A stretch of 64,000 nucleotides of DNA from a virus. The position numbers and the translations under genes were made by a program. Position 1 is the first letter of the stretch; every line of letters begins with the position of its first letter. Of this stretch, positions 1 to 11,987 are shown one piece after another. The stretch lies in the IMG/VR virus record IMGVR_UViG_3300045988_070924, positions 1 through 64,000 of that record; one strand, written 5' to 3'. Below the pieces are notes generated by a model that ran no database searches, had not been told where the DNA came from, and was given only the letters and a program-made list of their open reading frames with translations.

Positions 1-312
1 AGCTTCTTCTTCAGTTTCATAAAAAGTACCTATACAAGGAGACCCATAAGAATCTTCATATATATTTATCCAATATTCCTTTTTCTTAGGAGCAAAGAAC
101 AAATCATTTAAACTTACTTCTGCTTTCGGTATATACTTCTGACCATCTCTTGTATAAGTGACTACGTCTTCTTCATCACCTTTATAAACAAGTGCTACAA
201 TAGGCCATTTACCCTTTTTATCTGTGCAGAGAATCCTCGCAGCATAACCATCTCTAGTTACAATTTTTCGGTCTGGATTCTTCAAGTATTCATCTAAATT
301 AAACTGTTTCAT
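1..312 (-). CDS. hypothetical protein (C-terminus outside window); tandem paralog of 316..705
   Basis: Absent from the ORF track because no stop lies in the window. Read by eye from the ATG at 312: MKQFNLDEYLKNPDRKIVTRDGYAARILCTD...LFFAPKKKEYWINIY. Shares the LxEYLKNPxRKIxTxDG and LFFAPxKKExWINIY blocks with the next ORF. Confidence 0.6.
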   Translation of the reverse strand, partial: MKQFNLDEYLKNPDRKIVTRDGYAARILCTDKKGKWPIVALVYKGDEEDVVTYTRDGQKYIPKAEVSLNDLFFAPKKKEYWINIYEDSYGSPCIGTFYETEEEA

Positions 313-315
313 AGT

Positions 316-705
316 TTACTCCTCCCATTGGATTTTAATTGTTGAAATATAGCCCACAAGACCACTTCCTATTGCTGATTCCGCTTCTTCCTTTGTATTA
401 TAAACTTGTGACCCAGGAGTTATCATTGAAGATAGATTATATTTATAAATATTTATCCAACCTTCTTTCTTCTCTGGTGCGAAAAATAAATCATATGGAT
501 TATCTTTCGTTCCTCTTGTTTCTACTCCATCTTCCCAATAAGTCTTAATAATCTCATCTCCATTTGGTATTGTGATTAACGCTACAATTTGCTTTGTATT
601 TAATCCACATCTGTCAACACAAATAATTCGTGCTCTTCTGCCATCCTTTGTAGTAATTTTTCTTTGCGGATTTTTTAAGTATTCTCTTAAGTTAAACGGT
701 CTCAT
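316..705 (-). CDS. hypothetical protein, paralog of 1..312
   Basis: 129-aa ORF tightly packed in the minus-strand block. Shares motif blocks with the upstream partial ORF. Confidence 0.6.
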   Translation of the reverse strand: MRPFNLREYLKNPQRKITTKDGRRARIICVDRCGLNTKQIVALITIPNGDEIIKTYWEDGVETRGTKDNPYDLFFAPEKKEGWINIYKYNLSSMITPGSQVYNTKEEAESAIGSGLVGYISTIKIQWEE

Positions 706-714
706 ATCTTCTTA

Positions 715-1005
715 TTATTTATGTTTGCCATATCCTGCAATTCCTGTGTAACTGCAATTATCCAAGAACTCCTGTGCATCAGCTTTAAGAGTGTTAGTAT
801 TTATTTTGTCCTTATATCTTATGATAAGAGCACAAGCATTTGCTAACTCTTCTGTCTTTTCTCTTGCTGTTTTCTTGAGAGAATCCTCTTTGTGTTTGAC
901 AAGTTCTGCAATTGAAATTGTATCATCTTCTAACAGAGTCATGAGAATAACGTACCTGTCTAATGGGCTTTCTTTCAAGAATTTTATAATTTCCTTGTTA
1001 GTCAT
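715..1005 (-). CDS. hypothetical protein
   Basis: 96-aa ORF, co-oriented, with 3-9 nt spacing to its neighbours. Confidence 0.5.
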   Translation of the reverse strand: MTNKEIIKFLKESPLDRYVILMTLLEDDTISIAELVKHKEDSLKKTAREKTEELANACALIIRYKDKINTNTLKADAQEFLDNCSYTGIAGYGKHK

Positions 1006-1008
1006 AGT

Positions 1009-1221
1009 TTATTCCTCCATTGCTTTTCTGAATTTAATTTCAAACTCATTAAATGAAGATGTTATTATCTCTTCCTTGTGTTCCTTAAACCATTCAAGAG
1101 CTTTTTCTATCATCAACTTTTCTCCTGCTTCAAAACCACATTTCCAAAGATTAAAATCTCGCTCTTGTCTCTTGGCTATTTCGGCTTTACTTGGGCCGGG
1201 TCTCATTATAACTGAACTCAT
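1009..1221 (-). CDS. hypothetical protein
   Basis: 70-aa ORF, co-oriented and tightly packed. Confidence 0.45.
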   Translation of the reverse strand: MSSVIMRPGPSKAEIAKRQERDFNLWKCGFEAGEKLMIEKALEWFKEHKEEIITSSFNEFEIKFRKAMEE

Positions 1222-1273
1222 AATTATTCCTCCTATTTGTTATTTTATGGTTATTATTTAAGTAGTAACAACT

Positions 1274-1504
1274 TTACCACCTACTTGCAAAAGAAGTTTC
1301 TCCCACTCTATCCATTTCTTCTTGATACCTTCCACTATAAAACTCTTCTCTTGCCTTTTTAGCTGCCATTTCCTCTTCAGGAGTTCTTTGATGGTCTATA
1401 ACAAGTTCACCCTTAAAATTTCGAGTAATAAGGTTGGAATATACCTTCATGTTTTTTGGATACTTTGCTAATGCAGAAATTAGCTCTTCTACTGTTGTTA
1501 TCAT
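1274..1504 (-). CDS. hypothetical protein
   Basis: 76-aa ORF, co-oriented. Confidence 0.45.
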   Translation of the reverse strand: MITTVEELISALAKYPKNMKVYSNLITRNFKGELVIDHQRTPEEEMAAKKAREEFYSGRYQEEMDRVGETSFASRW

Positions 1505-1536
1505 ATTATTATATTATTAAAGTTTCTATTAAAAAA

Positions 1537-1661
1537 CTTCCCTGCTTGGACTCGAACCAAGGACCCTGAGATTACAAATCTGAAGTAACTGTAAATATCA
1601 CCACAATTAGGGAACATTCTTCACAGTTCTGTACATGCTCTACCAACTGAGCTACAGGGAA
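1537..1661 (-). tRNA. tRNA-Thr(UGU)-like gene with a 52-nt insertion (1584..1635) between the D arm and the anticodon arm; possibly a chimeric ncRNA or pseudogene
   Basis: Hand fold of the minus strand. Acceptor TTCCCTG/CAGGGAA, D arm GCTC-AGTTGGTA-GAGC, T arm CTTGG-TTCGAGT-CCAAG. Anticodon arm TCAGA-TTTGTAA-TCTCA with one C-C mismatch. Total length 125 nt. The insertion carries the E-family motif AGTTACTTCA. Confidence 0.55.
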
Positions 1662-1672
1662 GTTTAGATTGA

Positions 1673-1755
1673 AAGGCACTATGTAACAATCTTTAGAGTT
1701 CTATTGAAAACTAAGAAACAGTTGAAGTAACTCTAAATATCAACAATAGTGCCTT
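1673..1755 (-). ncRNA. E-family structured element, copy E2 (transcribed strand not established)
   Basis: Outer stem AAGGCACTAT/ATAGTGCCTT and inner stem TTTAGAGTT/AACTCTAAA. Conserved plus-strand motif TGAAGTAACT at 1723-1732. Conserved internal-loop bases. Confidence 0.5.
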
Positions 1756-1759
1756 ATAT

Positions 1760-1857
1760 AAGATATCATAAGAACATTTAGACAGAGGTGTTGTTATATG
1801 AGAGTCAAAAATTGCAAATTTGATGAAGTAACTCTGTCTGTCACTATACAATATCTT
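1760..1857 (-). ncRNA. E-family structured element, copy E3
   Basis: Outer stem AAGATAT/ATATCTT and inner stem AGACAGAG/CTCTGTCT. TGAAGTAACT at 1824-1833. Confidence 0.5.
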
Positions 1858-1864
1858 TATTTAG

Positions 1865-1950
1865 TACCAGAAATGAGACTTGAACTCACACGGGCATTGC
1901 TGCCCAAGGGATTTTAAGTCCCTCGTGTCTACCAATTCCACCATTCTGGC
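1865..1950 (-). tRNA. tRNA-Leu(UAA), class II
   Basis: Acceptor GCCAGAA/TTCTGGT, anticodon arm AGGGA-CTTAAAA-TCCCT, long variable arm, T loop TTCAAGT. Confidence 0.85.
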
Positions 1951-1959
1951 ATTTTAATG

Positions 1960-2033
1960 TAGGGAGTAAGGGACTTGAACCCTTAGTCTTGAGTGTATAA
2001 GACTCCTGCTTTCACCAATTAAGCTAACTCCCT
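1960..2033 (-). tRNA. tRNA-Ile(UAU)
   Basis: 74-nt cloverleaf. Acceptor AGGGAGT/ACTCCCT, anticodon loop CTTATAC, T arm AAGGG-TTCAAGT-CCCTT. Confidence 0.8.
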
Positions 2034-2092
2034 ATAAAACAGGTGTACTTCACAGCAGACCTGTCCATGTTCATCCTCTAAAAGAAGAATTG

Positions 2093-2164
2093 TACCCCCA
2101 GAAGGAATTGAACCCTCATTTAAAGAGTAGAAATCTTTTGTTCTATCCATTGAACTATAGGGGC
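2093..2164 (-). tRNA. tRNA-Arg(UCU)
   Basis: 72-nt cloverleaf. Acceptor GCCCCTA/TGGGGGT, anticodon arm AAAGA-TTTCTAC-TCTTT, T loop TTCAATT. Confidence 0.85.
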
Positions 2165-2192
2165 ATTGAGGCAGACTTGCTGCCTCTTTTCA

Positions 2193-2465
2193 CTATATCT
2201 CTATAGTGGTATCAAAATCATCCCAGTCTTCTTTTTCACTAACCTCGAACATCTCATCATCAATCTTGCTCCAGAAATCTCTACCTTCAGGGGTCTCCGC
2301 CCAAAAGAAAGCCTTATTAACAGTGCTAGGTGACTCTTTACCAAGAAGATAGTATAGTATCTGCTCTGGGGAGTTCATTGCTACTATACAGTTATTTATA
2401 AACTGAGGTAACCAAGGCTGCTTCAATATCCACTCAGATGCTTTCGGATTGACCTCTATTTCCAT
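2193..2465 (-). CDS. hypothetical acidic protein
   Basis: 90-aa ORF immediately downstream of the AAA+ gene in the same operon. Confidence 0.5.
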   Translation of the reverse strand: MEIEVNPKASEWILKQPWLPQFINNCIVAMNSPEQILYYLLGKESPSTVNKAFFWAETPEGRDFWSKIDDEMFEVSEKEDWDDFDTTIEI

Positions 2466-2476
2466 AATATGCCCTC

Positions 2477-3865
2477 CTATTTGCCTCTAAGAATCTGCTT
2501 GATTCCTTCAGCCATTATAGTCTGCATGCTCTGATAGAACTCCTTCTCAGGAGTCATGCTCATATCCTTCTTTCTTGAGAGGTTTACCTGTCTGTCATAA
2601 GCCTTGACAGCATTCTTGAGAATCTCATCAGTTACAAGATTGTTCTCTGCAAAGATAAGTTTACTCTTGATAGATTCAACTATCTCTGCCATGAATGCAG
2701 GTGCTATCTCCATCTTCTCTATAAGGTCGAGGGATTCTTTAAGTTCACCAACCTTATATCCATCTTTGAAGGACTCTTTGATGAATCTCAATGCTGTCTC
2801 CTTATCAAGGCAGTCCATAGTAATTACTGAACCAATTCTCTTTCCTCTGAGGAATGTAGGTTCAATAAGTTCTATGTGGTTGGTAGTGAACAAAGTAATG
2901 ACATTCATATCTTTGGTATCACCACCATCAAGAGTGTTCAGAATATCCTGAAGAGATGCATCTCTTTCTCCTCTTGTAACCTGGTCAATGTCCTCTACAA
3001 AGACTATCACTCCATTGCATGACCTGTCTATGATTTTCACCATCCTCAAGGTCTCTGCAAGAAGAGAAGGGTCCTTAAGATATACAAAAGTCCAATTGTT
3101 CTTGGTAGCCTCTCTTGCAAGTTTGAATGCAAGAAGGGTCTTTCCAGTACCATACTTCCCTTCAAACAGACATCCATACTTAAGAGGAATGCCTGCCTTG
3201 AGACATTTCTCAGGATACAGGATTCTTGACCTCAAAGGCTGAAGGTCAAACTCTGTCTGCTTTGACAAGACCATCAATTGACTATCTATATGGCTGAGGT
3301 TGAGTCTCTTAGGCTCTTTGCCTCTCTCTGTTATCTCAAGAGCCTGATTCTTGTAGATAGAGTTTGTAGCAAGGAGTTCCCTTGTCCTGTCCACGATATC
3401 ATCAATCATGGACTGATACTTAGACTTGCACACTCCTGTTATAACCAGTTCTGAAGTACTATTGGAGTAGTTCAACTCTATATAGGAATCACCACCAAGT
3501 TCAGGCAATGAAATCCTACCAAAAGGTACTTTTGTTCGTGAGCCATCAGCAAGGATAACATCAAAAGTATTGATATTACCAGAGCCTGAAGGACCTGCAT
3601 CTTTCTCAGCCCTTACTGAGCCAAATATCTCTTCAACAGCCTTGTTAAACTGGAATGCACCGTCAGTCTTCCAACATTTGATGTTGTAATTGAGAGATAC
3701 GTCCTGTTCAGACATTTCTATCTCATTCTTGATGAAGGCAAGAACTTCTGCATACTTCATGTCTGACTTACAGGCTGTAATGATACGCTCTTTTTGCTGC
3801 TGTTCAAAGAAATTTACTTTCTTCTTGAGCACATCCTTTGTGCTCTGGATAATTGTTTGTTCCAT
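2477..3865 (-). CDS. classic-clade AAA+ ATPase with an uncharacterised N-terminal domain
   Basis: Walker A GKYGTGKT, Walker B VIVFVEDID, and TNHIELIEPTFLRGKRIG (second region of homology). The ATG at 3865 is preferred over the track start at 3931, which would overlap the upstream ORF. An A-rich spacer precedes the ATG. Confidence 0.8.
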   Translation of the reverse strand: MEQTIIQSTKDVLKKKVNFFEQQQKERIITACKSDMKYAEVLAFIKNEIEMSEQDVSLNYNIKCWKTDGAFQFNKAVEEIFGSVRAEKDAGPSGSGNINTFDVILADGSRTKVPFGRISLPELGGDSYIELNYSNSTSELVITGVCKSKYQSMIDDIVDRTRELLATNSIYKNQALEITERGKEPKRLNLSHIDSQLMVLSKQTEFDLQPLRSRILYPEKCLKAGIPLKYGCLFEGKYGTGKTLLAFKLAREATKNNWTFVYLKDPSLLAETLRMVKIIDRSCNGVIVFVEDIDQVTRGERDASLQDILNTLDGGDTKDMNVITLFTTNHIELIEPTFLRGKRIGSVITMDCLDKETALRFIKESFKDGYKVGELKESLDLIEKMEIAPAFMAEIVESIKSKLIFAENNLVTDEILKNAVKAYDRQVNLSRKKDMSMTPEKEFYQSMQTIMAEGIKQILRGK

Positions 3866-3876
3866 TGTTTTTTTTT

Positions 3877-4122
3877 TTAATAAATACTTGTCAATATGTT
3901 CTTGGCATTTTCTATAGTTGTTGTTAAGCATCCAAACTCTATAATTTCACCACTTTTCCTTATGACCAGATTCTTCTGAGGTATGTTATATCTGTCCATG
4001 TCACCATAGACAGCCTCCTTAAGAAGGTCATAAGGAACAGCAGTGTTCTTACAGAATAGGATTCTTTTCTCAGGGACATAAATTACATCATATCCCTGAA
4101 TGTTTCCTACTGTTTGTCTCAT
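3877..4122 (-). CDS. hypothetical protein between the Ro60-like and AAA+ genes
   Basis: 81-aa ORF. Its start overlaps the stop of the upstream gene by 4 nt. Confidence 0.5.
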   Translation of the reverse strand: MRQTVGNIQGYDVIYVPEKRILFCKNTAVPYDLLKEAVYGDMDRYNIPQKNLVIRKSGEIIEFGCLTTTIENAKNILTSIY

Positions 4123-5528
4123 TCATCAAAAGTATTTTCAATACCTTCATATGCTGCTATGAATGTTAGGAAATTCTCTGAAAAGCCACTTATTTCAGCA
4201 TCCCAAGCACCCTTATAGTTCACACCATGCCTTTCAGATGATACATCACAGATGTAGTTGTGTTTTCCAAAAGGCTTTGGAACTCTCTTATCAGGATAGT
4301 CACAGTCCTGTGAGTCTGAGAATACAATTATTCTATCAAACTCTCCAGTAAACTGTTCTCTTGACCACTCAAGACACTGTCTTGTGAAGATTCCTCCACC
4401 TCCAACCCTACTATTTGCTTTATCTATCTGCTTGAGAAGGTTGAATCCCTTTGAAGGATATTTGATTACTTCTGATTTATGCTCTTTGGTATAGTCATTA
4501 CCAGCAGTTACTACCAACTCAAAGTCTTCACACTGGTTTGCAGCAAGCATAGCCATAGCCTTTGCAGCATCAAGCCTTGTGAGTTTAGACTTACTTGAGA
4601 TTGAAGCATACTTCATAGAACCAGAAGCATCAAGTATGAACAGAGTCCTACCAGGGACTTTAGGAAGATTAGACCATGAAGTTATCATAGCATCTTCTAT
4701 ATCCCTCTCAAACTCAGGATTCATTCTGGCTGCCTGCAAGAAGTTCATAGGCAATAGCATTGAAGCCTTAAGGTTTTCAAAGCCATATTTTATTACTTTC
4801 TTGTCTACATCTGCATCCCTCATGTTTCTCAGGTTTCTAAGGAATGCAAGACCTCCAATCTTATTCTCACTGATGAGTTTGGTCCATGTTTCCTTCTTGT
4901 CTTTTCCTGCTGAAAGCATGGTCTCCCAAGTTTCAGGTACAGGAAGAGTCCTTGAAGCAATCATCTTGAAGAGTTCTGCTTCCTTTTCATCCCAAGGTCT
5001 TGGGTGAACAAGAAACATTACATCTCTGAGTTTTATTGCAGCATCTCTGTCATACTTTGCAAACTTATAGGCATTGAAATTATGAAATGCTGCTGCAAGT
5101 CCTTTCTTTGCCTGATTAGCCAGTGACTTCTTTCCTCCTTTCCAATATATAGAAAGGAAGTCAGTCAGCATATCTGCCCTTGTTATAATCTTTGGTAGCA
5201 AGTCTCTTACAAATAGCCTATGTTCAGGGTACTTGCACATTCCAGATGCCAGAAACAAAGGTGTGTGCCTGAGTTTCTGTAGAGTTCTTGCTGCCAAAGC
5301 AACAGTATATACATCTTCTGCACTACATAGAGGTATGAGCCTTTCAATCTCTTCAGCAATCTTCTTGCCATCACAATAGGCAACATCTTCCCAAAGAAGA
5401 TTAGCCAAGGTGAGTCTTTTAAGAAGAGCAATGTTTGACTGCTTAGCAGCAAGAGCACCACTACCTCCAGCAAGTCTTTCATCTGTAAATTTAGATGTTG
5501 ACTTGATGTTTGGATTCAATTTAGACAT
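4119..5528 (-). CDS. rsr: Ro60/Rsr-like protein (TROVE domain plus vWA domain)
   Basis: The segments FAKYDRDAAIKLRDVMFLVHPRP, ETWTKLISENKIGGLAFLRNLRNM and LLPMNFLQAARM correspond, from memory, to the human Ro60 segments [44 protein letters not shown] and IHPFHILIALETY. The C-terminal vWA domain has the MIDAS motif LFILDASGSM. Confidence 0.85.
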   Translation of the reverse strand: MSKLNPNIKSTSKFTDERLAGGSGALAAKQSNIALLKRLTLANLLWEDVAYCDGKKIAEEIERLIPLCSAEDVYTVALAARTLQKLRHTPLFLASGMCKYPEHRLFVRDLLPKIITRADMLTDFLSIYWKGGKKSLANQAKKGLAAAFHNFNAYKFAKYDRDAAIKLRDVMFLVHPRPWDEKEAELFKMIASRTLPVPETWETMLSAGKDKKETWTKLISENKIGGLAFLRNLRNMRDADVDKKVIKYGFENLKASMLLPMNFLQAARMNPEFERDIEDAMITSWSNLPKVPGRTLFILDASGSMKYASISSKSKLTRLDAAKAMAMLAANQCEDFELVVTAGNDYTKEHKSEVIKYPSKGFNLLKQIDKANSRVGGGGIFTRQCLEWSREQFTGEFDRIIVFSDSQDCDYPDKRVPKPFGKHNYICDVSSERHGVNYKGAWDAEISGFSENFLTFIAAYEGIENTFDE

Positions 5529-5554
5529 AGTAAACTAATGTTTTAATTGTTTGA

Positions 5555-5586
5555 CAAAGGTAAATAAAATAATTGGTATTACCAAA
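5555..5586 (-). promoter_or_regulatory. Bacteroidota-type promoter for the Ro60-like operon
   Basis: On the minus strand: TTTG (5586-5583), a 20-nt spacer, then TACCTTTG (5562-5555), about 27 nt upstream of the ATG at 5528. Confidence 0.6.
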
Positions 5587-5591
5587 TAATT

Positions 5592-5819
5592 TTACATACC
5601 AAACCTTAAATTCCCATTGTTCCCACCAATAAGTTTTTTCTTACCACAATTCAGACATTCACATACTCTGTATCCATTTATTTCAGAGAGTCCAATTGTG
5701 AATAAGGCATTGAAGAATCTTGGGATTCCTGCTCTTTCTCCCAAGTCATTGGTGGTGTAAATCTCATGGGCTGTGGTTCTGCCACATATGGGACAGTACG
5801 TTTGTATAACTCTGGACAT
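5592..5819 (-). CDS. zinc-ribbon protein
   Basis: 75 aa with CPICG...CLNCG (two CxxC pairs). Confidence 0.55.
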   Translation of the reverse strand: MSRVIQTYCPICGRTTAHEIYTTNDLGERAGIPRFFNALFTIGLSEINGYRVCECLNCGKKKLIGGNNGNLRFGM

Positions 5820-6088
5820 TTCTTGATAGTTCTAACAGTGTCTACCCTGACTTTAAGTTCTACTTTATATTTGCCTCTGTCATAATCTATAACAGCCTTG
5901 TTCATGCTTGTTTCTATACTTGCGTAAGAAATAAGTATACATAGACTAAGTGTGGCTACAGTGAGGACCCAACTTGTGATTTTCAGTAGTCTGTCTGTTT
6001 TTTTCTCAAAAGGTGGGAGGCATATCTTACAAACTATACCAAATCCCATCCATAGCAACACACTGAATATAAATTGTCCATAGTCCAT
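5678..6088 (-). CDS. membrane protein; its 3' part overlaps the zinc-ribbon ORF in another frame
   Basis: Two N-terminal hydrophobic helices. The last ~140 nt overlap 5592..5819, so the true C-terminus is uncertain. Confidence 0.4.
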   Translation of the reverse strand: MDYGQFIFSVLLWMGFGIVCKICLPPFEKKTDRLLKITSWVLTVATLSLCILISYASIETSMNKAVIDYDRGKYKVELKVRVDTVRTIKKCPELYKRTVPYVAEPQPMRFTPPMTWEKEQESQDSSMPYSQLDSLK

Positions 6089-6723
6089 TATAATCTTACT
6101 TTATAGTAGTTAAGTCTTGCCTGTAGTGAATCAATATTATGATTAGTAAGTATATGGGTGTGTATAGTTTTTAATTTACTTTCATAATATTTATCAGTAG
6201 CATACCTATTTCCATTTATATCTGTAAAGGAATCAAATAAATCTTCTATTGTTTTGCCATTAAGATAATTGGAGTTCAATAAATATAGATATGGTTCAAC
6301 AGAATCATTTGGATTTTTGTATTTGAATTTAATATCTTCAAGACTATAATTGTCATAAGCACCTACATTCCAGATGCTGTTTGTCCTATAAGCCAATCCT
6401 GTTGTACCAAATTTACTTTCCAATTCTCCTTGAGCTAATACAAAAGAAATAGGTATTTTATACTTTTCACATTTTTCTACAAGAATCAAAGCTCTAAGAT
6501 TTGAATTAGGAGCTATTGAATCTATGTAATTTTGTGTGGCATCTACAAGGTCTGATTTCACACCTTGATATTTTACATGCAATTCCTTCATATATTCAGT
6601 TGCAGTATCATATTCTCCATTCTCACTTTTAGGAAAAGCCCAAGTAAAAGCAAAAATAGCTATGATAGCTACTATTGAAATACAGATAGAATTTAATGTA
6701 ATTCTAAATCTTTCTGTAGTCAT
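6088..6723 (-). CDS. membrane-anchored glucosaminidase-like peptidoglycan hydrolase (tentative)
   Basis: N-terminal TM helix. AQGELESKFGTTGLAYRTNSIWNVGAYD resembles the glucosaminidase/FlgJ-type catalytic block (ESxxG...N.FG). Confidence 0.45.
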   Translation of the reverse strand: MTTERFRITLNSICISIVAIIAIFAFTWAFPKSENGEYDTATEYMKELHVKYQGVKSDLVDATQNYIDSIAPNSNLRALILVEKCEKYKIPISFVLAQGELESKFGTTGLAYRTNSIWNVGAYDNYSLEDIKFKYKNPNDSVEPYLYLLNSNYLNGKTIEDLFDSFTDINGNRYATDKYYESKLKTIHTHILTNHNIDSLQARLNYYKVRL

Positions 6724-7022
6724 GGTTTTTGATTTTTGTTAAATATGCTAAGAATAGCATTCCAGAATTTTACATACCAAGGAACCTTCTTAGCTTCTTC
6801 TCTAGGAGTTTTATAGGCATTTGCAAGTGCACAATCTATTACATAACTATCAATAATATCCCTATTTCTATAATATCTTGAGGAAACTGCCTTTCTAGAT
6901 ATAAGAATATTAAATTTGTTAATTATTTCATCTTGTGCCTGCATGAAAGCCAAAGTATGATTTCTCTGATGATTCAAGATACATTTAGCTATTATCTTGT
7001 CCATCTCTTTTGTCCACTTCAT
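6720..7022 (-). CDS. hypothetical protein
   Basis: 100-aa ORF with a 4-nt overlap to the downstream gene. Confidence 0.5.
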   Translation of the reverse strand: MKWTKEMDKIIAKCILNHQRNHTLAFMQAQDEIINKFNILISRKAVSSRYYRNRDIIDSYVIDCALANAYKTPREEAKKVPWYVKFWNAILSIFNKNQKP

Positions 7023-7263
7023 TATAATCCTTTATTAGTTGGTTAATAATAAGTTTTATGAGGATAAATACTAATAGTATAGGAACTGTCACTATAATTA
7101 ACTTAATAAAAACTGCCAACATGATGATGAAAATTGATATAATAACAGCTCCTACTCCTATTATTATTCCCATTTCTTTTGCACTAAGTATTTTATTCCA
7201 ATACAGAGTAGTACTATAGGCAAGCCCAATATTGCAATCATCACTAAGAGAGCTATAATACAA
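6985..7263 (-). CDS. small membrane protein (the internal Met at 7173 may be the true start)
   Basis: Long hydrophobic stretch GIIIGVGAVIISIFIIMLAVFIKLIIVTVPILLVFILI. Confidence 0.4.
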   Translation of the reverse strand: MYYSSLSDDCNIGLAYSTTLYWNKILSAKEMGIIIGVGAVIISIFIIMLAVFIKLIIVTVPILLVFILIKLIINQLIKDYNEVDKRDGQDNS

Positions 7264-7321
7264 AATATCACATTTCCTGTTGCTGTTACTGGTTCCATAA
7301 TATTATTCTTTTACTATCTTT

Positions 7322-7717
7322 TTATTGTTTATTCTTTCTTTCTTTTTGTGCTTTGAGCCTTGCTCTTAAACCTTCATTTTCTGCTATTGGCTTATAAGCA
7401 AGATTCATAAAATAATGAAGTAGTGAGAGTACACATACTATGCAGAACCAAGTGAACAGAAAATCATATATTATGTTTCCTGATACTGGCATAAGATGGT
7501 ATTTCAGACCTCTTGTGGTGAACATAATCACCAGCACTACATAGTGACCCAGACAATAAGGGCAGTGAATAAGTTCTTCTATCTTTCCGCCTATGTGGTC
7601 TTCTATAAGATTTCTGAGCCATTCAAATATACTTGTAACACTTATTGTATAGGATATACTGGCTGCACACAATGCTACAGCCAGTATATAAGTCCAATCA
7701 CCACCCATAGTAATCAT
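7322..7717 (-). CDS. multi-pass membrane protein with a CPYC motif
   Basis: 131 aa, 3-4 predicted TM helices, HCPYCLGHY between helices. Confidence 0.5.
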   Translation of the reverse strand: MITMGGDWTYILAVALCAASISYTISVTSIFEWLRNLIEDHIGGKIEELIHCPYCLGHYVVLVIMFTTRGLKYHLMPVSGNIIYDFLFTWFCIVCVLSLLHYFMNLAYKPIAENEGLRARLKAQKERKNKQ

Positions 7718-8033
7718 CAGGATTGTGGTCCTCTACAGAACCTGTATACTCACCCTCATATACTGCCCCTGCTACATCCTCTAGTGCCTTCATCTTGTCA
7801 TAGTCACTATCTATAAGGTCACCATCTTTTACACCCTCATAGTCTTCAGGAACTATTGCATGATAGAGGTTTTCACTAGTGGAACCACATCCACACTTTG
7901 ATACATAGGTGAAGTTTATGACTTTCTTTCTGGTCTCAGGTATTTCCTGAGATTTTATGTTCTCAAACATCTCCTTGAGATTCTCCTCTTCCTGAGGTTC
8001 TTCTCTCTTTTTGAATAATTGTCCTATTCCCAT
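7698..8033 (-). CDS. hypothetical acidic protein
   Basis: 111-aa ORF. It overlaps both neighbours by a few codons, which suggests translational coupling. Confidence 0.5.
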   Translation of the reverse strand: MGIGQLFKKREEPQEEENLKEMFENIKSQEIPETRKKVINFTYVSKCGCGSTSENLYHAIVPEDYEGVKDGDLIDSDYDKMKALEDVAGAVYEGEYTGSVEDHNPDDYYGW

Positions 8034-9097
8034 GTCTTTATTATCTTAGTTAAGATAGATTCAGATAGTTCTCCATTTGCTTCTCTGATGATAGAGTAGG
8101 AAGCCTTGTCTACAATACCCTTTATAAGAGCACCAGACAATTTTCCATTGAATTGGCTGTATGCTTCCTTAGATATGCTTTTAGCCAGTTTATTAACATT
8201 TCCAGATACAGGTTTGCCCTTAAGATATATCTTGAAGATGTCTTCTGCATCCTCAACTGTAGGTCTTGAAATTTCAAGCCTAAGGTCAATTCTTCCTGGT
8301 CTGATGATTGCTGGGTCAAGAGCATCCTTGAAGTTGGTAGCAAGGATTATAAAAGTAGAATTACTTTCAAACCCATCAAGTTCACTCAAGAATGTAGGAA
8401 CAATGGTGAGGTCTACATCTGATGACCTTCTACTGCCCCTTGCATTAAGTACAGCTTCTGCTTCATCAATAAATATGACTGACCTCTGTTTCCTTACTCT
8501 GTAGTTCTGTCTTGCCCTTGAGAACATACTCTTAATATTATTCTCAGTTACACCAACATATGGACTGAGCATTTCTCCACCCTTCAAATAAATAAAAGAG
8601 TCTGGATTCAACTCAGTACCATTAAGGAATGCTGATGCAATAGCCTTGGCTACCATAGTTTTACCACATCCTGGAGGACCATAAAGAAGAACTCCTCTTG
8701 ATGGTTCAAGACCCATTCTCTTGAGATAGTCAGGATGTTTTATAGGCAATTCTATAGCATCTCTTATCTGTGAAATCTGACTCTTGAGACCTCCAATCTG
8801 CTCCCATTTGATATGTTCAAACTCTACAGGCTTGACAGGTTTCTCAAGTTCTTCTGGAAGAATACATATAATCATATTCTTGTTTACCATTACCTTGTCT
8901 CCTATCTTTGGGTTTTCATCGAGTTTAGGTGATTTAGGTATGATTACCTCATTACCATTTACTATAACTCTATACAACCCATTGTGCTGAGAGATGACAA
9001 CACTTTCCATGTAAGGTCCTTCTATGACCATCTCAAGTAGTTTTTCATACTCTGAGATTTTATCTCTCAAAGCATCAATTTCTTCCTGATAACTCAT
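8024..9097 (-). CDS. PAN/ARC/Rpt-like AAA+ unfoldase (coiled coil + OB domain + AAA)
   Basis: N-terminal heptad-like MSYQEEIDALRDKISEYEKLLEMV, then an OB-like YRVIVNGNEVIIPKSPKLDENPKIGDKVMVNKNMIICILP. Walker A GPPGCGKT, Walker B VIFIDEAEAV, and ATNFKDALDPAIIRPGRIDLRLEISRP. Confidence 0.8.
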   Translation of the reverse strand: MSYQEEIDALRDKISEYEKLLEMVIEGPYMESVVISQHNGLYRVIVNGNEVIIPKSPKLDENPKIGDKVMVNKNMIICILPEELEKPVKPVEFEHIKWEQIGGLKSQISQIRDAIELPIKHPDYLKRMGLEPSRGVLLYGPPGCGKTMVAKAIASAFLNGTELNPDSFIYLKGGEMLSPYVGVTENNIKSMFSRARQNYRVRKQRSVIFIDEAEAVLNARGSRRSSDVDLTIVPTFLSELDGFESNSTFIILATNFKDALDPAIIRPGRIDLRLEISRPTVEDAEDIFKIYLKGKPVSGNVNKLAKSISKEAYSQFNGKLSGALIKGIVDKASYSIIREANGELSESILTKIIKTWE

Positions 9098-9206
9098 TTT
9101 AGCACCTCCTTGTTAAATGTTGATACTACTGTGAAGGTCTTTTCTCCTTGAGAAATTCCTTCTTTTTTTTTGTTACATAACATTGTTTTTTTTGTGGGTT
9201 AAATAG

Positions 9207-9280
9207 TGACTCCACTGGGACTTGAACCCAGATAACCTACCTTAAAAGGGTAGTGCATTAACCAATTATGCTATGGAGTC
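9207..9280 (-). tRNA. tRNA-Lys(UUU)
   Basis: Acceptor GACTCCA/TGGAGTC, anticodon arm CTACC-CTTTTAA-GGTAG, T arm CTGGG-TTCAAGT-CCCAG. Confidence 0.85.
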
Positions 9281-9287
9281 CTCCAGA

Positions 9288-9572
9288 CTACTTGTCCTCG
9301 CCAGTATCATTCTTTGAACCACCAGTAGCCATATCAAGCATCAGTGTAGCAGCCAGAATATTCCTAAGATTAGGAGTCTTCTTTATGGCTGATAGAAGTG
9401 CTGTAATAAGATTCTGGTTCTGTCCAACCACTGCACACGTTGATGATTTCTCATCTGTTGCAAGGACTATACATCCTCTCTTTTCCTTGTTTTCAGAAGT
9501 CCATTTGACTACATTCTCACAGACATCTATTCTCTTCTGTTCACCTTTGGTTGGTGTTCTATCATCTTTCAT
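9288..9572 (-). CDS. hypothetical protein; likely paralog of 9575..9886
   Basis: 94 aa. Both ORFs share the pattern W-x4-9-(K/N)R(G)C(A/I)IV(I)L(G/A)(T)D followed by a Cys and an LI(T/A)(A/S)L block. Confidence 0.5.
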   Translation of the reverse strand: MKDDRTPTKGEQKRIDVCENVVKWTSENKEKRGCIVLATDEKSSTCAVVGQNQNLITALLSAIKKTPNLRNILAATLMLDMATGGSKNDTGEDK

Positions 9573-9574
9573 GA

Positions 9575-9886
9575 CTATTTCTCCTCTTCTTCTGATTTGT
9601 TGAACATAGACAGCAGTTCTCCAAGAGACCCCATCAGACTATAAGCTGCAAACTCCTTGAGGTCCTTATTATGGTCCAATGAACTTCCGAGAGATGCTAT
9701 TAGGAGTTCTCCTGGACCTATCATGCCACATAAAGACCTTCCTGCATCTTCCTTGTTTTCTCTGTCACCCAGAATGACTATTGCACATCTGTTGTCTGAG
9801 TCTTGGTCACACCAAGAGGTGATGAGCTCATTGATTTTCCCCTTCTGTTCATCAACAGAGAGAGATTTGAAATCTTTTTCTTTCAT
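9575..9886 (-). CDS. hypothetical protein; likely paralog of 9288..9572
   Basis: 103 aa. Poly-A leader directly upstream of the ATG. Confidence 0.5.
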   Translation of the reverse strand: MKEKDFKSLSVDEQKGKINELITSWCDQDSDNRCAIVILGDRENKEDAGRSLCGMIGPGELLIASLGSSLDHNKDLKEFAAYSLMGSLGELLSMFNKSEEEEK

Positions 9887-9940
9887 TTGTTTTTTTTTTT
9901 AAGATTAGTACTAATATGTTAAGAAATGTATTTTATTTAA

Positions 9941-10035
9941 AAAGGGCTATGCAACAGTTTGTGGAGTATAATTAAGTACCCAAAAACTTATTTCATTATC
10001 AGTGAAGTAACTCCACTATTCAGCAATAGCCCTTT
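9941..10035 (-). ncRNA. E-family structured element, copy E4
   Basis: Outer stem AAAGGGCTAT/ATAGCCCTTT and inner stem GTGGAGT/ACTCCAC. TGAAGTAACT at 10003-10012. Lies immediately 3' of ORF 10050..10820. Confidence 0.5.
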
Positions 10036-10049
10036 GTCTTTAGCTCAGT

Positions 10050-10820
10050 TTATCCCTCAGCCTTCAGCATTTCATATGCCTTTTTGACATCTTCCTGCTT
10101 CTGGAAATATACTATTCCCAGATACATCACTCTTTCATGTGTACCTATACAATAGTTATTATCCAGCTTAATGCTGTTAGGAAGGTTATAGGAATAGTGA
10201 GTCTTTGCCAAGAAATACTTGGTCTTGGTTACGTCTGGCTCCCATGTACCATTGAAATACTTGGCTATAAGTGCCAGTTTCATATGAAGAGTGAGTTCAC
10301 TACCTATCTCTACCCCTATTTCCTTGGAGAGTTTCATGGTGCTTGAAGCATCTTTACTACCCAGTTTCATGTTCAGGTGAAGGCTTGTTATTCCAAGAGA
10401 TTCAAGAACTTCCTTGAGGCTCTGTGGTTCACTCAATTCCTTTTCAGTATATGCCTGAAGAGCCAGCTTATGCAGAGTCTGGTCTTTGCCATTATACCAA
10501 TTTCTTGCCTCTTCAAGAGAGACTTTGACGTTTCTTTTTTCCCTGTTATTACTTGTTTGATGGTTGTTAAATCTTGTTGATGGTGTTTCTACCTGAGTAT
10601 CAATAGGCAGTAGCTCCTTGAGTATAAATTCATTGTAGGTATTGTAGATTCCTACAGGATAATCAAAGACCCTAACTACCTTCATAGGAGCATCTCCATA
10701 GTTTGGATTTCTCAGTATATCTCCTTCCCTCACATAGGGCATCTTTGGGATTTTGAATGTGCATTTCTTTGTTCTTGAAGAACTGCTTTCAGGAAACACT
10801 ACTGTACATAATCTCATCAT
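10050..10820 (-). CDS. hypothetical protein
   Basis: 256-aa ORF with no motif I can recognise. Confidence 0.55.
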   Translation of the reverse strand: MMRLCTVVFPESSSSRTKKCTFKIPKMPYVREGDILRNPNYGDAPMKVVRVFDYPVGIYNTYNEFILKELLPIDTQVETPSTRFNNHQTSNNREKRNVKVSLEEARNWYNGKDQTLHKLALQAYTEKELSEPQSLKEVLESLGITSLHLNMKLGSKDASSTMKLSKEIGVEIGSELTLHMKLALIAKYFNGTWEPDVTKTKYFLAKTHYSYNLPNSIKLDNNYCIGTHERVMYLGIVYFQKQEDVKKAYEMLKAEG

Positions 10821-10866
10821 ATTATATTTGTTTATAAATCTTCTCCGTAAGGGTTTCTCTAATAAA

Positions 10867-10949
10867 AGAGAGGCTATGTAATAAGCTGTAAAGTGTTTTT
10901 CATAATACCCTAAATTGAAGTAACTTTACAAATCAACAATAACCTCTCT
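10867..10949 (-). ncRNA. E-family structured element, copy E5
   Basis: Outer stem AGAGAGG/CCTCTCT and inner stem TGTAAAGT/ACTTTACA. TGAAGTAACT at 10916-10925. Lies immediately 3' of the small ORF 10957..11097. Confidence 0.5.
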
Positions 10950-10956
10950 GATTATT

Positions 10957-11097
10957 TTATTCGTGGTATCCACAGTTTGGACAGTAACATCCATCATACA
11001 TATTGTCACAATTAGGACATCTGTACTCTGGTTCCCAATCTAACCCTTCTGATGTTATATCTTCAGAAGGGTTATCTAGAAGTTCTATATCATTCAT
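10957..11097 (-). CDS. 46-aa zinc-ribbon mini-protein
   Basis: Below the track cut-off. Read by eye: MNDIELLDNPSEDITSEGLDWEPEYRCPNCDNMYDGCYCPNCGYHE. Confidence 0.45.
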   Translation of the reverse strand: MNDIELLDNPSEDITSEGLDWEPEYRCPNCDNMYDGCYCPNCGYHE

Positions 11098-11100
11098 GGT

Positions 11101-11229
11101 CTACTCTTTTAGTAAGACATACAAAACTGTAGAATTTTCCTTTCTGAGCATGTATTTCTCCTCTGTAGGGAATTCAACAGAGTACTTTACTTCCTCTGTT
11201 GGAATAGATTTCTTTTCAAACTGTTTCAT
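11101..11229 (-). CDS. possible 42-aa ORF
   Basis: Read by eye: MKQFEKKSIPTEEVKYSVEFPTEEKYMLRKENSTVLYVLLKE. Sits tightly between its neighbours. Confidence 0.3.
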   Translation of the reverse strand: MKQFEKKSIPTEEVKYSVEFPTEEKYMLRKENSTVLYVLLKE

Positions 11230-11581
11230 TTTTATCTTCTTTGGGGTCATTACCAGTTAATATGGCAATATCTTCTGATGTTATGAATGTTTTACATATG
11301 TAGATTAATGCAAATCCTATCCCAAATACTATCAGTATTCCAGTGGATGTAAAAGAATCTGCAAGACATACTGCAAAAATCCAGTATATCAAAGTTGAAT
11401 ACATCAGTATTCCTTTGATTATGTATATGATTGTTTTCATTTTAGTGAAAATATTGTAAGTTGTGAGTAATTTACTTATTAAAAATAGGACAATCTTTGC
11501 AAGAAATGTGCAGTGATTTGCTCTAAGTTCATCACAGTAGAAAATAAAACAAAAGGACAAAATGGTCATAGAATAGACCAT
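11216..11581 (-). CDS. membrane protein (the internal Met at 11440 is a plausible start)
   Basis: Hydrophobic helices IYWIFAVCLADSF and GILIVFGIGFALIYI. Confidence 0.4.
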   Translation of the reverse strand: MVYSMTILSFCFIFYCDELRANHCTFLAKIVLFLISKLLTTYNIFTKMKTIIYIIKGILMYSTLIYWIFAVCLADSFTSTGILIVFGIGFALIYICKTFITSEDIAILTGNDPKEDKNETV

Positions 11582-11606
11582 TCTGTCCTAATGTCAAGAG
11601 CCATGA

Positions 11607-11897: not shown

Positions 11898-11953
11898 AGT
11901 GCTTGAATGTTTGAATGTTTGTAGATAAACTTAGTTGGTCCACATATCTTGTG

Positions 11954-11987
11954 TCCCAAAGTATGGAGAATATGCTGTGTTGTTTTA
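11954..11987 (-). promoter_or_regulatory. conserved 34-nt motif, copy A (candidate phage-specific promoter)
   Basis: Plus strand: TCCCAAAGTATGGAGAATATGCTGTGTTGTTTTA. Lies 56 nt upstream of the ATG at 11897. Confidence 0.45.

What the first reader, a model, noticed from the sequence alone, without database searches (positions are those of the whole stretch)
1537..1857. Three copies of a covarying two-stem RNA element (E family) in the tRNA cluster downstream of the Ro60-like gene
Five intergenic elements in this window share one architecture. Each has an outer stem of 7-10 bp, a conserved asymmetric internal loop, an inner stem of 7-9 bp, and a variable apical region.

The plus-strand 3' halves align as follows.
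- E1: TGAAGTAACTGTAAATATCACCACAATTAGGG
- E2: TGAAGTAACTCTAAATATCAACAATAGTGCC
- E3: TGAAGTAACTCTGTCTGTCACTATACAATATC
- E4: TGAAGTAACTCCACTATTCAGCAATAGCCC
- E5: TGAAGTAACTTTACAAATCAACAATAACCTC

The 5' halves share (C)TATG(T/C)AA(C/T)A.

The stem sequences differ between copies but stay complementary.
- E2: AAGGCACTAT/ATAGTGCCTT and TTTAGAGTT/AACTCTAAA
- E3: AAGATAT/ATATCTT and AGACAGAG/CTCTGTCT
- E4: AAAGGGCTAT/ATAGCCCTTT and GTGGAGT/ACTCCAC
- E5: AGAGAGG/CCTCTCT and TGTAAAGT/ACTTTACA

This compensatory variation argues for selection on RNA structure rather than on a protein-binding DNA repeat.

E1-E3 lie in the same minus-strand operon as a Ro60/Rsr ortholog (4119..5528), about 2.3 kb downstream. 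In bacteria, Ro60 partners with Y RNAs, which are 70-120 nt stem-internal loop-stem RNAs usually encoded near rsr. These elements are therefore candidate phage Y-RNA-like ligands. An alternative is RNase III-type processing signals such as those in the T7 early region. I do not recognise the motif as any named RNA family.
Basis: partly seen in the sequence, partly recalled or inferred. Interest (0 to 1): 0.85.

Follow-up and report, generated by a model that had tools for sequence, protein, structure and literature searches.

The report
New Ro60-linked RNA family in crAss-like phages
The repeats are genes for a previously undescribed family of small structured RNAs, some fused to complete tRNAs, that lie beside the Ro60 (TROVE) gene in crAss-like and other phages and are most likely its RNA partners.

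Summary
E2-E5 are four hairpin RNAs (S-type) on the minus strand.

E1 is different. It is a 125-nt tRNA-Thr(UGU)-like gene carrying the same module as a 52-nt extra arm (T-type).

A covariance model built only from unrelated contigs finds exactly E2-E5 in the 64-kb window (E 7e-12 to 2e-9; next hit E 0.9).

Covariation is strong: 93-96% of cells are paired against 62-67% when shuffled, and 17-18 of 18 pairs change on both sides. G-U pairs outnumber A-C 35 to 8, which points to the Ro60-sense strand.

The conserved core is a bulged U, two covarying pairs, an invariant U-U and G-U, an inner helix, and UACUUCA.

Model-validated elements sit next to a TROVE gene, always on its strand. In metagenomes 34 of 71 validated loci hold one (median gap 185 nt), against 0 of 48 chance pattern matches. 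TROVE identity falls as low as 25%.

crAss001 has five elements in the unannotated gap after gp96. DAC15, which has no TROVE gene, has none.

No Rfam family matches, and the canonical GNCGAA Ro60-binding motif is absent.

Best reading: a new class of Y-RNA-like Ro60 partners. Binding has not been tested.

The parts
1673..1755 (-). E2, an S-type E RNA of 83 nt. Read 5'->3' on the minus strand: outer stem AAGGCACUAU/AUAGUGCCUU; bulged U; two pairs GU/AC; U-U and G-U; inner stem UUUAGAGU/ACUCUAAA; then UACUUCA at the start of the apical loop.
   Evidence: R1 81.7 bits. Independent model R3 61.2 bits, E 7e-12. Fold z -4.6.
1761..1856 (-). E3, an S-type E RNA of 96 nt. Outer stem AGAUAUUGUA/UAUGAUAUCU with two G-U pairs; UAGUG / UGUUCU core; inner stem AGACAGAG/CUCUGUCU.
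   Evidence: R1 62.3 bits. R3 52.8 bits, E 7e-10. Minimum-free-energy folding does not recover this structure.
1537..1661 (-). E1, a T-type E RNA: a 125-nt tRNA-Thr(UGU)-like gene. It has acceptor stem UUCCCUG/CAGGGAA, D arm, anticodon arm UCAGA-UUUGUAA-UCUCA and T arm CUUGG-UUCGAGU-CCAAG. An E arm sits between positions 26 and 27.
   Evidence: Direct reading. ARAGORN does not call the intact sequence. After the arm is removed in silico, ARAGORN calls a 73-nt tRNA-Thr(tgt). The Rfam tRNA model scores 22.4 bits, below its 29-bit cut-off.
1584..1635 (-). The 52-nt E arm of E1, a permuted module: spacer; inner 3' strand ACUGUGAA; GAAUGUUCC; loop CUAAUUG; UGGUG; inner 5' strand UUUACAGU; UACU.
   Evidence: R2 hit at 1581-1629, 55.8 bits, E 3.7e-8. 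Alignment A5.
9941..10035 (-). E4, an S-type E RNA of 95 nt, lying between ORFs 10050-10820(-) and 9575-9886(-). Outer stem AAAGGGCUAU/AUAGCCCUUU; core UGCUG / UGUUGC; inner stem GUGGAGU/ACUCCAC.
   Evidence: R1 79.6 bits. R3 51.2 bits, E 1.7e-9. Fold z -3.5.
10868..10948 (-). E5, an S-type E RNA of 81 nt, lying between ORFs 11216-11581(-) and 10050-10820(-). Outer stem GAGAGGUUAU/AUAGCCUCUC; core UGUUG / AUUAC; inner stem UGUAAAGU/ACUUUACA.
   Evidence: R1 73.7 bits. R3 54.7 bits, E 2.6e-10. Fold z -4.3.
4119..5528 (-). Ro60/Rsr-like gene (TROVE plus vWA domains, 469 aa), the presumed protein partner.
   Evidence: Pfam TROVE E 1e-12 and weak vWA_Ro60. Best PDB match is phiLo Ro60, 9KOP/9L5Y, E 8e-15. 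67% identical to crAss001 gp96.
1864..2164 (-). tRNA-Arg(UCU), tRNA-Ile(UAU) and tRNA-Leu(UAA). They lie directly upstream of E3-E2-E1 on the same strand, with 5-12 nt spacers between E3, E2 and E1 and 7 nt between tRNA-Leu and E3. Together they form one compact non-coding array.
   Evidence: ARAGORN and Rfam. No terminator-like site on the minus strand in 1200-2400.

Best explanation
E1-E5 are genes for small structured non-coding RNAs transcribed from the minus strand together with the phage's Ro60 gene. I read them as the RNA subunits of a phage Ro60 ribonucleoprotein, that is, functional counterparts of Y RNAs.

Anatomy, shown here:
- a closing helix of free sequence (6-11 bp);
- a bulged U;
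- two covarying base pairs;
- an invariant U-U and an invariant G-U;
- a short asymmetric loop (5' NNN against 3' NNNUG);
- an inner helix of 6-9 bp that ends in conserved G-C and U-A pairs;
- single-stranded UACUUCA.

This module comes in three packages:
1. a plain hairpin with a variable apical domain (S-type: E2-E5);
2. a hairpin whose apical domain is a whole tRNA (seen in relatives);
3. a closed arm inserted into a complete tRNA, at the 26/27 junction or in the D loop (T-type: E1).

Mechanism, inferred:
- The conserved module is the docking site for Ro60.
- The variable part (apical hairpin or tRNA body) is the effector module. It recruits other factors, as Y RNA tethers Ro60 to PNPase in Deinococcus and in Thermus phage phiLo, and as the tRNA-like domain of YrlA is thought to do.
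- The RNAs are released from the polycistronic early transcript. The T-type ends and the neighbouring tRNAs would be cut by RNase P and 3' tRNA processing enzymes, which also frees the S-type RNAs packed 5-12 nt apart.
For: RNA structure
- Covariation is strong. The two pairs next to the bulged U are AU:19/GC:15 and GC:23/CG:5/UA:5/AU:1, with none unpaired among 34 sequences. U-U and G-U are invariant in 34/34 and 22/22.
- Strand: G-U 35 against A-C 8. All hits of models R1, R2 and R3 lie on the TROVE-sense strand.
- An independent model recovers exactly E2-E5 in the window.

Link to TROVE
- In 13 of 20 loci fetched through the protein, the elements lie within 0-140 nt of the gene or form an array of 3-5 right after it.
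- Viral contigs: a TROVE gene is present in 15 of 24 pattern loci, always on the same strand, at 34-68% identity.
- Genome contigs: 3 of 4 model-positive loci hold a TROVE gene, against 0 of 22 model-negative loci.
- Metagenomes: 34 of 71 model-positive loci against 0 of 48 model-negative, Fisher p 5e-10. All 34 are on the same strand, the median gap is 185 nt, and TROVE identity is 25-74%.
- Negative control: DAC15, from the same subfamily as crAss001, has no TROVE gene and no element.

tRNA chimeras
- tRNA fusions occur in both nesting orders, which parallels the tRNA mimicry of YrlA.

Precedent
- Phage Ro60 proteins with adjacent Y-like RNAs are known (PMC4201824), and binding has been shown for phiLo (PMC12135203).
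- The TROVE gene of crAss001 is an early gene with no known RNA partner (PMC8375218).
Against: - There are no expression or binding data of any kind.
- The motif thought to mediate Ro60 recognition in bacteria (GNCGAAN0-1G) and its metazoan counterpart GGUCCGA are absent: 0 of 110 elements carry GNCGAAN0-1G.
- Neither Rfam Y_RNA nor YrlA gives a hit.
- Some TROVE loci have no element within 10 kb, even with search filters off: L131, L133 and L134 at 57-58% identity, and L136.
- 37 of 71 model-positive metagenome loci show no TROVE gene in the stored flank. Most are short, but a few have 3-8 kb on each side, for example L199.
- In this window E4 and E5 lie 4.4-5.4 kb from the gene, and E1-E3 lie 2.3-2.6 kb from it, with other genes in between.
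- Alignments fitted to a covariance model lean towards pairing and towards G-U.
Confidence: 0.68

Rival explanations
1. The module is the ligand of some other factor, and its position next to TROVE reflects only shared regulation or shared function in RNA or tRNA metabolism. Candidates are a host or phage tRNA-processing, modification or repair enzyme, or a nuclease.
For: - The module is repeatedly joined to complete tRNAs. It sits in tRNA arrays and in one relative directly before a tmRNA gene (L127; tmRNA genes also lie in the same region in L128 and L129).
- The canonical Ro60-binding motif is absent.
- Some elements have no TROVE gene in several kb of flank.
Against: - TROVE is the only gene consistently adjacent across lineages whose TROVE proteins are only 25-74% identical to the window's.
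- It is always on the same strand, with a median gap of 185 nt.
- Other neighbours vary: AAA ATPase, GIY-YIG endonucleases, a C10 peptidase.
- Arrays made only of S-type elements sit beside TROVE where no tRNA-embedded copy was seen; the flanks were not screened for tRNA genes (L170, L191).
Confidence: 0.15
2. The hairpins are RNase III-type processing or stability signals of the early polycistronic transcript, like the T7 R1.1-type sites that have two stems and an internal loop.
For: - The architecture is two stems plus an asymmetric internal loop.
- E4 and E5 are intergenic.
- The elements are tightly packed between tRNAs.
Against: - The invariant positions are non-helical (bulged U, U-U, G-U, UACUUCA) and are conserved from 16% to 54% G+C.
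- In T-type copies the outer stem shrinks to 0-3 bp, too short for RNase III.
- The module is embedded inside tRNAs.
- The TROVE-less relative DAC15 has none, although it has the same genome organisation.
Confidence: 0.07
3. The T-type arms are intervening sequences that are removed to give functional tRNAs, and the S-type elements are free-standing or degenerate copies of the same mobile element.
For: Removing the arm in silico gives canonical 73-74-nt tRNAs with standard 7-nt anticodon loops: Thr UGU, Ile GAU, Met CAU and Lys UUU. The insertion sites differ between copies (26/27 junction or D loop).
Against: - No splicing machinery for such arms is known in bacteria or phages.
- The arm is about 50 nt, and no Rfam ribozyme family matches.
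- S-type copies have the module in the opposite topology, which an intron model does not explain.
- Some T-type anticodon arms are degenerate (crAss001, L128).
Confidence: 0.04
4. They are cis-regulatory elements that control TROVE expression, or DNA-level protein-binding or recombination repeats.
For: They lie close to the TROVE gene and occur in several tandem copies.
Against: - They occur upstream or downstream of the gene, in tandem arrays of up to five or more, and inside tRNA bodies.
- The stems covary while their sequence is free, and G-U pairs are asymmetric between strands, which a DNA site would not show.
- There are no U-tracts, so they are not terminators.
Confidence: 0.04

Closest known systems
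YrlA (Rfam RF02553), the bacterial and phage tRNA-like Y RNA (Chen et al. 2014, PMC4201824; Wang et al. 2018, bioRxiv 10.1101/312249)
   Same: - Encoded within a few kb of Ro60 on the same strand.
- Modular: a stem module plus a tRNA-like module with canonical T and D arms.
- The Rfam YrlA consensus has A.G..CC ('guAuGuucCcca') on the 3' strand just after the D arm. This resembles the E motif AAUGUUCC at the equivalent place in T-type RNAs.
- M. smegmatis YrlA is also cut by RNase P in its acceptor stem.
   Different: - The GNCGAAN0-1G motif is absent (0 of 110).
- There is no model hit at E <= 10, whereas the CcrColossus control scores 42 bits.
- YrlA has a closed acceptor stem, no anticodon loop, and its ends in the Ro60-binding stem.
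- T-type E RNAs have open tRNA ends, often a full anticodon arm, and the module as an additional closed arm.
- The conserved core (bulged U, U-U, G-U, UACUUCA) has no counterpart in the published description.
YrlB, D. radiodurans Yrn1 and Thermus phage phiLo Yrl1/Yrl2 (PMC12135203)
   Same: - Short stem / internal loop / stem RNAs next to Ro60.
- Several paralogues per locus.
- phiLo Ro60, the best solved relative of the window's protein, binds such RNAs and, according to that paper, forms a complex with host PNPase.
   Different: Those RNAs were identified by the CGAA motif in the internal loop. S-type E RNAs lack it and have a different invariant core.
Metazoan Y RNAs (Rfam RF00019)
   Same: - A helix formed by the 5' and 3' ends that contains a bulged nucleotide.
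- About 80-110 nt, with a variable loop module.
- A mammalian Y3 sequence (PMC4619022) contains GUGGUG, AGUUAC and UUGUUCC in the same order as the E blocks.
   Different: - There is no Rfam hit.
- In Y3 those blocks have other structural roles (upper stem and loop), and their spacing differs.
- I treat the resemblance as probably coincidental.
Phage T7 RNase III processing hairpins
   Same: Two stems separated by an asymmetric internal loop, lying between genes of an early transcript.
   Different: E elements have invariant non-helical nucleotides across unrelated phages, occur as arms of tRNAs, and track one gene (TROVE).
Intron-containing or permuted tRNA genes
   Same: A complete tRNA interrupted by about 50 nt at the D loop or the 26/27 junction.
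   Different: There is no bulge-helix-bulge motif, no group I intron, and no known splicing system in the hosts. The same module also exists outside tRNAs.

Membership tests
Y RNA (functional class: Ro60-bound non-coding RNA) | Encoded close to the Ro60 gene on the same strand (bacterial criterion of Chen et al. 2014: within about 4 kb) | tested here: met
   E1-E3 lie 2.3-2.6 kb downstream on the same strand. In relatives the gap is 13-140 nt. In metagenomes 34 of 34 are on the same strand with a median gap of 185 nt.
Y RNA (functional class: Ro60-bound non-coding RNA) | About 80-130 nt, with a long stem formed by the 5' and 3' ends that contains a bulged or irregular helix, plus a variable second module | tested here: met
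   S-type RNAs are 71-165 nt, median 84. They have an outer stem, bulged U, U-U/G-U step and variable apical domain. T-type copies do not meet this topology.
Y RNA (functional class: Ro60-bound non-coding RNA) | Ro60-binding sequence on the 5' strand: GGUCCGA in metazoa, GNCGAAN0-1G in bacteria | tested here: not met
   None of 110 distinct elements contains GNCGAAN0-1G. The 5' strand carries U(A/G)NUG instead.
Y RNA (functional class: Ro60-bound non-coding RNA) | Physical association with Ro60 | not testable with these tools
   Needs RIP/CLIP or EMSA with crAss001 gp96 or the window's protein.
YrlA (Rfam RF02553) | Score at or above the family's covariance-model threshold (69 bits) | tested here: not met
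   No YrlA hit at E <= 10 in window 1400-2300 or in L138 11300-12400. The positive control, CcrColossus, scores 42 bits at E 3e-7.
YrlA (Rfam RF02553) | tRNA-like domain with conserved T arm and D arm | tested here: met
   E1 and 14 other T-type RNAs have a 7-bp acceptor stem, a GGUUCGAGUCC-type T arm and a D arm. S-type copies lack this domain.
YrlA (Rfam RF02553) | Permuted-tRNA topology: closed acceptor stem-loop, no anticodon loop, RNA ends in the Ro60-binding stem | tested here: not met
   E1 has open acceptor ends and an anticodon arm, and the module is a closed extra arm. Relatives with a tRNA inside the hairpin do have their ends in the module, but they keep a whole tRNA.
tRNA (Rfam RF00005) | Cloverleaf recognised by tRNA detectors | tested here: not met
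   Intact E1 is not called by ARAGORN and scores 22.4 bits in Rfam, below the 29-bit cut-off. It is called tRNA-Thr(UGU) only after the 52-nt arm is removed.
Intrinsic terminator | G+C-rich hairpin followed by a U-tract | tested here: not met
   No terminator-like site on the minus strand in 1200-2400. No T-run follows E2-E5.
RNase III processing site | About two turns of double-stranded RNA, recognised by shape with little sequence requirement | tested here: inconclusive
   The S-type shape is compatible. However, T-type copies have outer stems of only 0-3 bp, and the family is defined by invariant non-helical bases. Cleavage cannot be tested here.

The most novel reading that the evidence does not exclude
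The E module is a portable Ro60-docking handle that phages graft onto complete tRNAs in either nesting order: an arm inside a tRNA, or a tRNA inside the hairpin. The resulting Ro60-tRNA chimeric particles would act on the tRNA economy of the infected cell. They might bait or block host anticodon nucleases and other tRNA-targeting defences. Or they might bring an exonuclease or repair activity to damaged tRNAs, echoing the bacterial rsr-yrlBA-rtcBA RNA-repair operon. This would give the early TROVE gene of crAss-like phages an anti-defence role.
Probability: 0.15. Interest if true: 0.9.

Novelty: new variant of a known kind. Interest (0 to 1): 0.75.

Why it matters
- Ro60 and Y RNAs are conserved from bacteria to humans, yet for most bacterial and phage Ro60 genes no RNA partner is known.
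- This family would supply partners for a broad set of phage and metagenomic TROVE proteins that are 25-74% identical to this one.
- It shows that the Ro60-linked RNA need not carry the canonical CGAA-type motif.
- It adds a second, independent way of tethering a tRNA shape to such an RNA.
- The family is present in crAss001, a cultured member of the most abundant group of phages in the human gut. The crAss001 TROVE gene is an early gene of unknown role, so the proposal can be tested directly.
- It also flags about 125-145-nt tRNA chimeras that standard tRNA finders miss.

Tried and rejected
- A loose pattern, TATGYAAYA-gap-TGAAGTAACT, on viral contigs was too unspecific.
- Megablast of 1200-5600 against GenBank phages found only tRNA-sized matches.
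- An ARAGORN deletion scan of T-type RNAs was too permissive to be informative. I replaced it with defined excisions.
- My gapless stem filter on metagenome hits was too strict: it rejected 12 loci that do hold a TROVE gene. I replaced it with the covariance model.
- p-crAssphage could not be fetched, one query was too long, and tblastn with ORF 13851-15506 found nothing. I used DAC15 as the TROVE-less control instead.
- The 2020 review on bacterial Ro60 was not held.
- Rejected readings: terminators (no U-tract); known ribozyme or any Rfam family; homology to metazoan Y3 on the basis of three short shared blocks (different structural roles and no model hit).
Full report
**What is in the window.** All genes in 1-12,000 run on the minus strand. 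The ORF at 4119-5528(-) is a TROVE protein (Pfam E 1e-12, plus weak Ro60-vWA). Its best solved relative is the Ro60 of Thermus phage phiLo (E 8e-15), and it is 67% identical to gp96 of Bacteroides phage crAss001. The 10-mer TGAAGTAACT occurs exactly at 1581, 1723, 1824, 10003 and 10916 on the + strand, where about 0.14 occurrences are expected. Read on the transcribed minus strand, the motif is AGUUACUUCA.

These are E2 1673-1755, E3 1761-1856, E4 9941-10035 and E5 10868-10948. E2, E4 and E5 fold with z of -3.5 to -4.6. E3 is not recovered by energy minimisation but aligns fully to the family models. I call these copies S-type.

**E1 is different.** It lies inside an unannotated 125-nt tRNA-like gene at 1537-1661(-). 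That gene has a perfect 7-bp acceptor stem, a canonical D arm, an anticodon arm UCAGA-UUUGUAA-UCUCA and a T arm CUUGG-UUCGAGU-CCAAG. ARAGORN does not call it. When 52 nt (1584-1635) are removed in silico, ARAGORN calls a 73-nt tRNA-Thr(UGU). Its nearest relative among the window's 19 tRNAs is the genuine tRNA-Thr(UGU), at 69% identity. The 52 nt carry the same conserved blocks as E2-E5 but in permuted order: inner 3' strand, AAUGUUCC, a 7-nt loop where the outer stem would be, UGGUG, inner 5' strand, GUUACU. I call this form T-type.

**Relatives.**
- The Ro60 protein retrieved 20 viral contigs.
- In contigs whose TROVE protein is 64-69% identical, GUUACUUCA occurs 3-4 times immediately after the TROVE stop codon or just before its start, always on the same strand.
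- Examples are L138 (stop at 11401; elements at 11418-11509, 11518-11596, 11602-11728 and 11731-11867), L123, L126 and L135.
- In crAss001 (L140) five elements fill the unannotated 900-bp gap between gp96 and gp95.
- In the window's own lineage (L120-L122) an 81-aa ORF, an AAA ATPase, a 90-aa ORF and three tRNAs have come to lie between Ro60 and the array.

**Structure and covariation.**
- A 15-sequence S-type alignment (A3) with a 10-bp outer and an 8-bp inner helix has 95.7% of cells paired against 67.1% when shuffled. Seventeen of 18 pairs change on both sides, and slid registers give 28-46%.
- Model R1 found 35 hits in 457 kb searched on both strands, all on the TROVE-sense strand. On that alignment 92.7% of cells are paired against 61.8%, and 18 of 18 pairs change on both sides.
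- The 'internal loop' is partly ordered. After the outer helix comes a bulged U, then two pairs that covary perfectly (AU:19/GC:15 and GC:23/CG:5/UA:5/AU:1, none unpaired of 34), then an invariant U-U and an invariant G-U (34/34 and 22/22).
- This explains the linked variants UAGUG/UUCU, UGGUG/UUCC, UGCUG/UUGC and UGUUG/UUAC.
- A model of the permuted T-type hairpin (R2; 86.5% paired against 67.7%) found 27 strong hits, again all TROVE-sense. They include E1 at 1581-1629 (55.8 bits).
- Fifteen T-type RNAs of 125-144 nt were delineated. Fourteen have 7/7 acceptor pairs, with differing sequences.
- In stems, G-U outnumbers A-C 35 to 8. This points to the TROVE-sense strand as the RNA, with the caveat that model-fitted alignments favour G-U.

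**Independent test.** Model R3 was built only from elements of other contigs (alignment A7, none from this lineage). With filters off it finds E2, E5, E3 and E4 at 61, 55, 53 and 51 bits (E 7e-12 to 1.7e-9). Nothing else in the 64-kb window scores better than 14.4 bits (E 0.92) on either strand.

**Association with TROVE.** I scanned three collections with the pattern TAGTG-N9-10-GTTACTTCA-N25-55-TGTTCT.

| Collection | Pattern loci | Result |
|---|---|---|
| Viral contigs | 24 | 15 hold a TROVE gene in the stored flank, all on the element's strand, at 34-68% identity |
| Genome contigs | 26 | 4 are model-positive and 3 of these hold TROVE; 0 of the 22 model-negative loci do |

- In the metagenome set all 34 are on the same strand and the nearest gap has a median of 185 nt. 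TROVE identity to the window's protein is 25-74%, and 22 of the 34 are below 45%.
- Median locus length is about 5 kb in both metagenome groups, so flank length does not explain the difference.
- Element G+C ranges from 16% to 54%, yet UAGUG, GUUACUUCA and UUGUUCU persist.
- Negative control: Bacteroides phage DAC15, from the same subfamily as crAss001 and 99.5 kb long, has no TROVE gene (best tblastn E 0.7) and no element better than E 0.4.
- The implication runs one way. TROVE loci L131, L133, L134 (57-58% identity, from contigs of 158-435 kb) and L136 have no element within the stored flanks (up to 10 kb each side; downstream only for L136).
- Conversely, 37 model-positive metagenome loci show no TROVE gene in their mostly short flanks.

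**tRNA fusions.**
- Defined excisions turn T-type RNAs into canonical tRNAs: E1 becomes Thr(UGU), L123 Lys(UUU), L127 Ile(GAU) and L138 Met(CAU).
- The arm sits at the 26/27 junction in E1 and L123, and in the D loop in L127 and L138.
- The reverse nesting also exists. ARAGORN calls tRNA-Gln inside the S-type hairpins at L128 6261-6399 and in L129, and tRNA-His inside the R1 hit at L122 13769-13903.
- Some T-type anticodon arms are degenerate, for example crAss001 5693-5836 and L128 9577-9702.
- What is conserved, then, is a tRNA-shaped body joined to the module, not decoding capacity.

**Comparison with known families.**
- Rfam release 15 reports only tRNAs at gathering thresholds for the whole window.
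- At E <= 10 nothing relevant appears around E1-E3 or in the L138 array.
- The library does hold YrlA. It detects three copies upstream of the CcrColossus TROVE gene (42 bits, E 3e-7), while R1 and R2 find nothing there.
- The published Ro60-recognition motif GNCGAAN0-1G (PMC4201824) is absent from all 110 distinct elements.
- Shared with YrlA: the position next to Ro60, the modular build and the T and D arms. There is also a possibly homologous AUGUUCC on the strand following the D arm, seen in the YrlA consensus.
- Different from YrlA: topology. YrlA is described as a permuted tRNA with a closed acceptor stem (bioRxiv 10.1101/312249), whereas T-type E RNAs have native tRNA ends. The conserved core also differs.
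- Literature searches found the crAss001 TROVE gene described only as an early gene and 'possible ribonucleoprotein component' (PMC8375218, PMC10136315). I found no description of an RNA partner in Crassvirales.
- Phage Y-like RNAs are known for mycobacteriophages, CcrColossus, Bacillus phage G and phiLo (PMC4201824, PMC12135203).

**Interpretation.**
- Shown: a widespread, strand-specific, covarying RNA motif. It comes in three packages and is tightly and specifically linked to TROVE genes.
- Inferred: the module docks Ro60, and the variable or tRNA part recruits effectors, by analogy with Yrn1, YrlA and phiLo Yrl. Processing by the tRNA maturation machinery is also inferred.
- I put this reading at about 0.68.
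- Rivals, in order: a different protein partner with a tRNA-centred role (0.15); RNase III-type processing hairpins (0.07); excised intron-like arms (0.04); cis-regulatory or DNA-level repeats (0.04).

**Verdict.** This is a real feature and a new variant of a known kind, Ro60-associated Y-like RNAs. It is not in Rfam and is not described in the literature I could search. It is directly testable in crAss001.

Noticed in passing
L128 6261-6399, L129 about 9433-9570, L122 13769-13903: The reverse nesting exists: a complete tRNA (Gln-UUG or His-GUG, called by ARAGORN) sits in the apical domain of an S-type hairpin, so the RNA ends lie in the E module.
   Followed up: partly
L127 4198-4550, L128 6553-6900, L129 9580-9958, L138 8559-8959: ARAGORN calls tmRNA genes with tag peptides in crAss-like relatives. 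In L127 the tmRNA gene starts 6 nt after an S-type element (4109-4192). No tmRNA gene is called in the window.
   Followed up: no
window 2477-3931 (-): A 484-aa AAA ATPase (PF00004, E 1e-13) lies between the vWA-containing Ro60 gene and the tRNA/E array in this lineage only. AAA and vWA proteins often work together, but I did not examine this.
   Followed up: no
L123 about 11965-12100, L138 11731-11867, L140 6090-6233: The last element of each array in the crAss001 clade is a long S-type (about 135-145 nt). Its apical domain holds a further conserved hairpin containing ..ACAGACUGA.., possibly a distinct effector module.
   Followed up: no
E modules compared with a mammalian Y3 sequence printed in PMC4619022: Y3 contains GUGGUG, AGUUAC and UUGUUCC in the same order as the E blocks. 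From my memory only, human Y1 has UAGUG, GUUAC and UUGUUCU, which would follow the A/U against G/C pairing rule of the E core. Their structural roles and spacing differ and Rfam Y_RNA gives no hit, so this is probably coincidence.
   Followed up: partly
window 57041-57050 (-): A sixth exact copy of TGAAGTAACT lies on the opposite strand. It has no support from any model and is a chance match.
   Followed up: yes
L189 (CAZEMX010000008.1): A 41.5-kb contig binned as a Nitrososphaerota archaeon MAG carries a TROVE gene 67% identical to the window's, followed by three E elements. It is most likely a crAss-like phage contig that was mis-binned.
   Followed up: no
L140 721-812 (crAss001): crAss001 has an annotated pseudo-tRNA, 'tRNA-?(Leu|Ile)(taat)'. 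ARAGORN also reads it with a four-base anticodon.
   Followed up: no
L164 983-2032 and 9052-9768; L151 2573-3358: GIY-YIG homing-endonuclease-like ORFs are interspersed with E elements in some contigs, as is common in phage tRNA regions.
   Followed up: no
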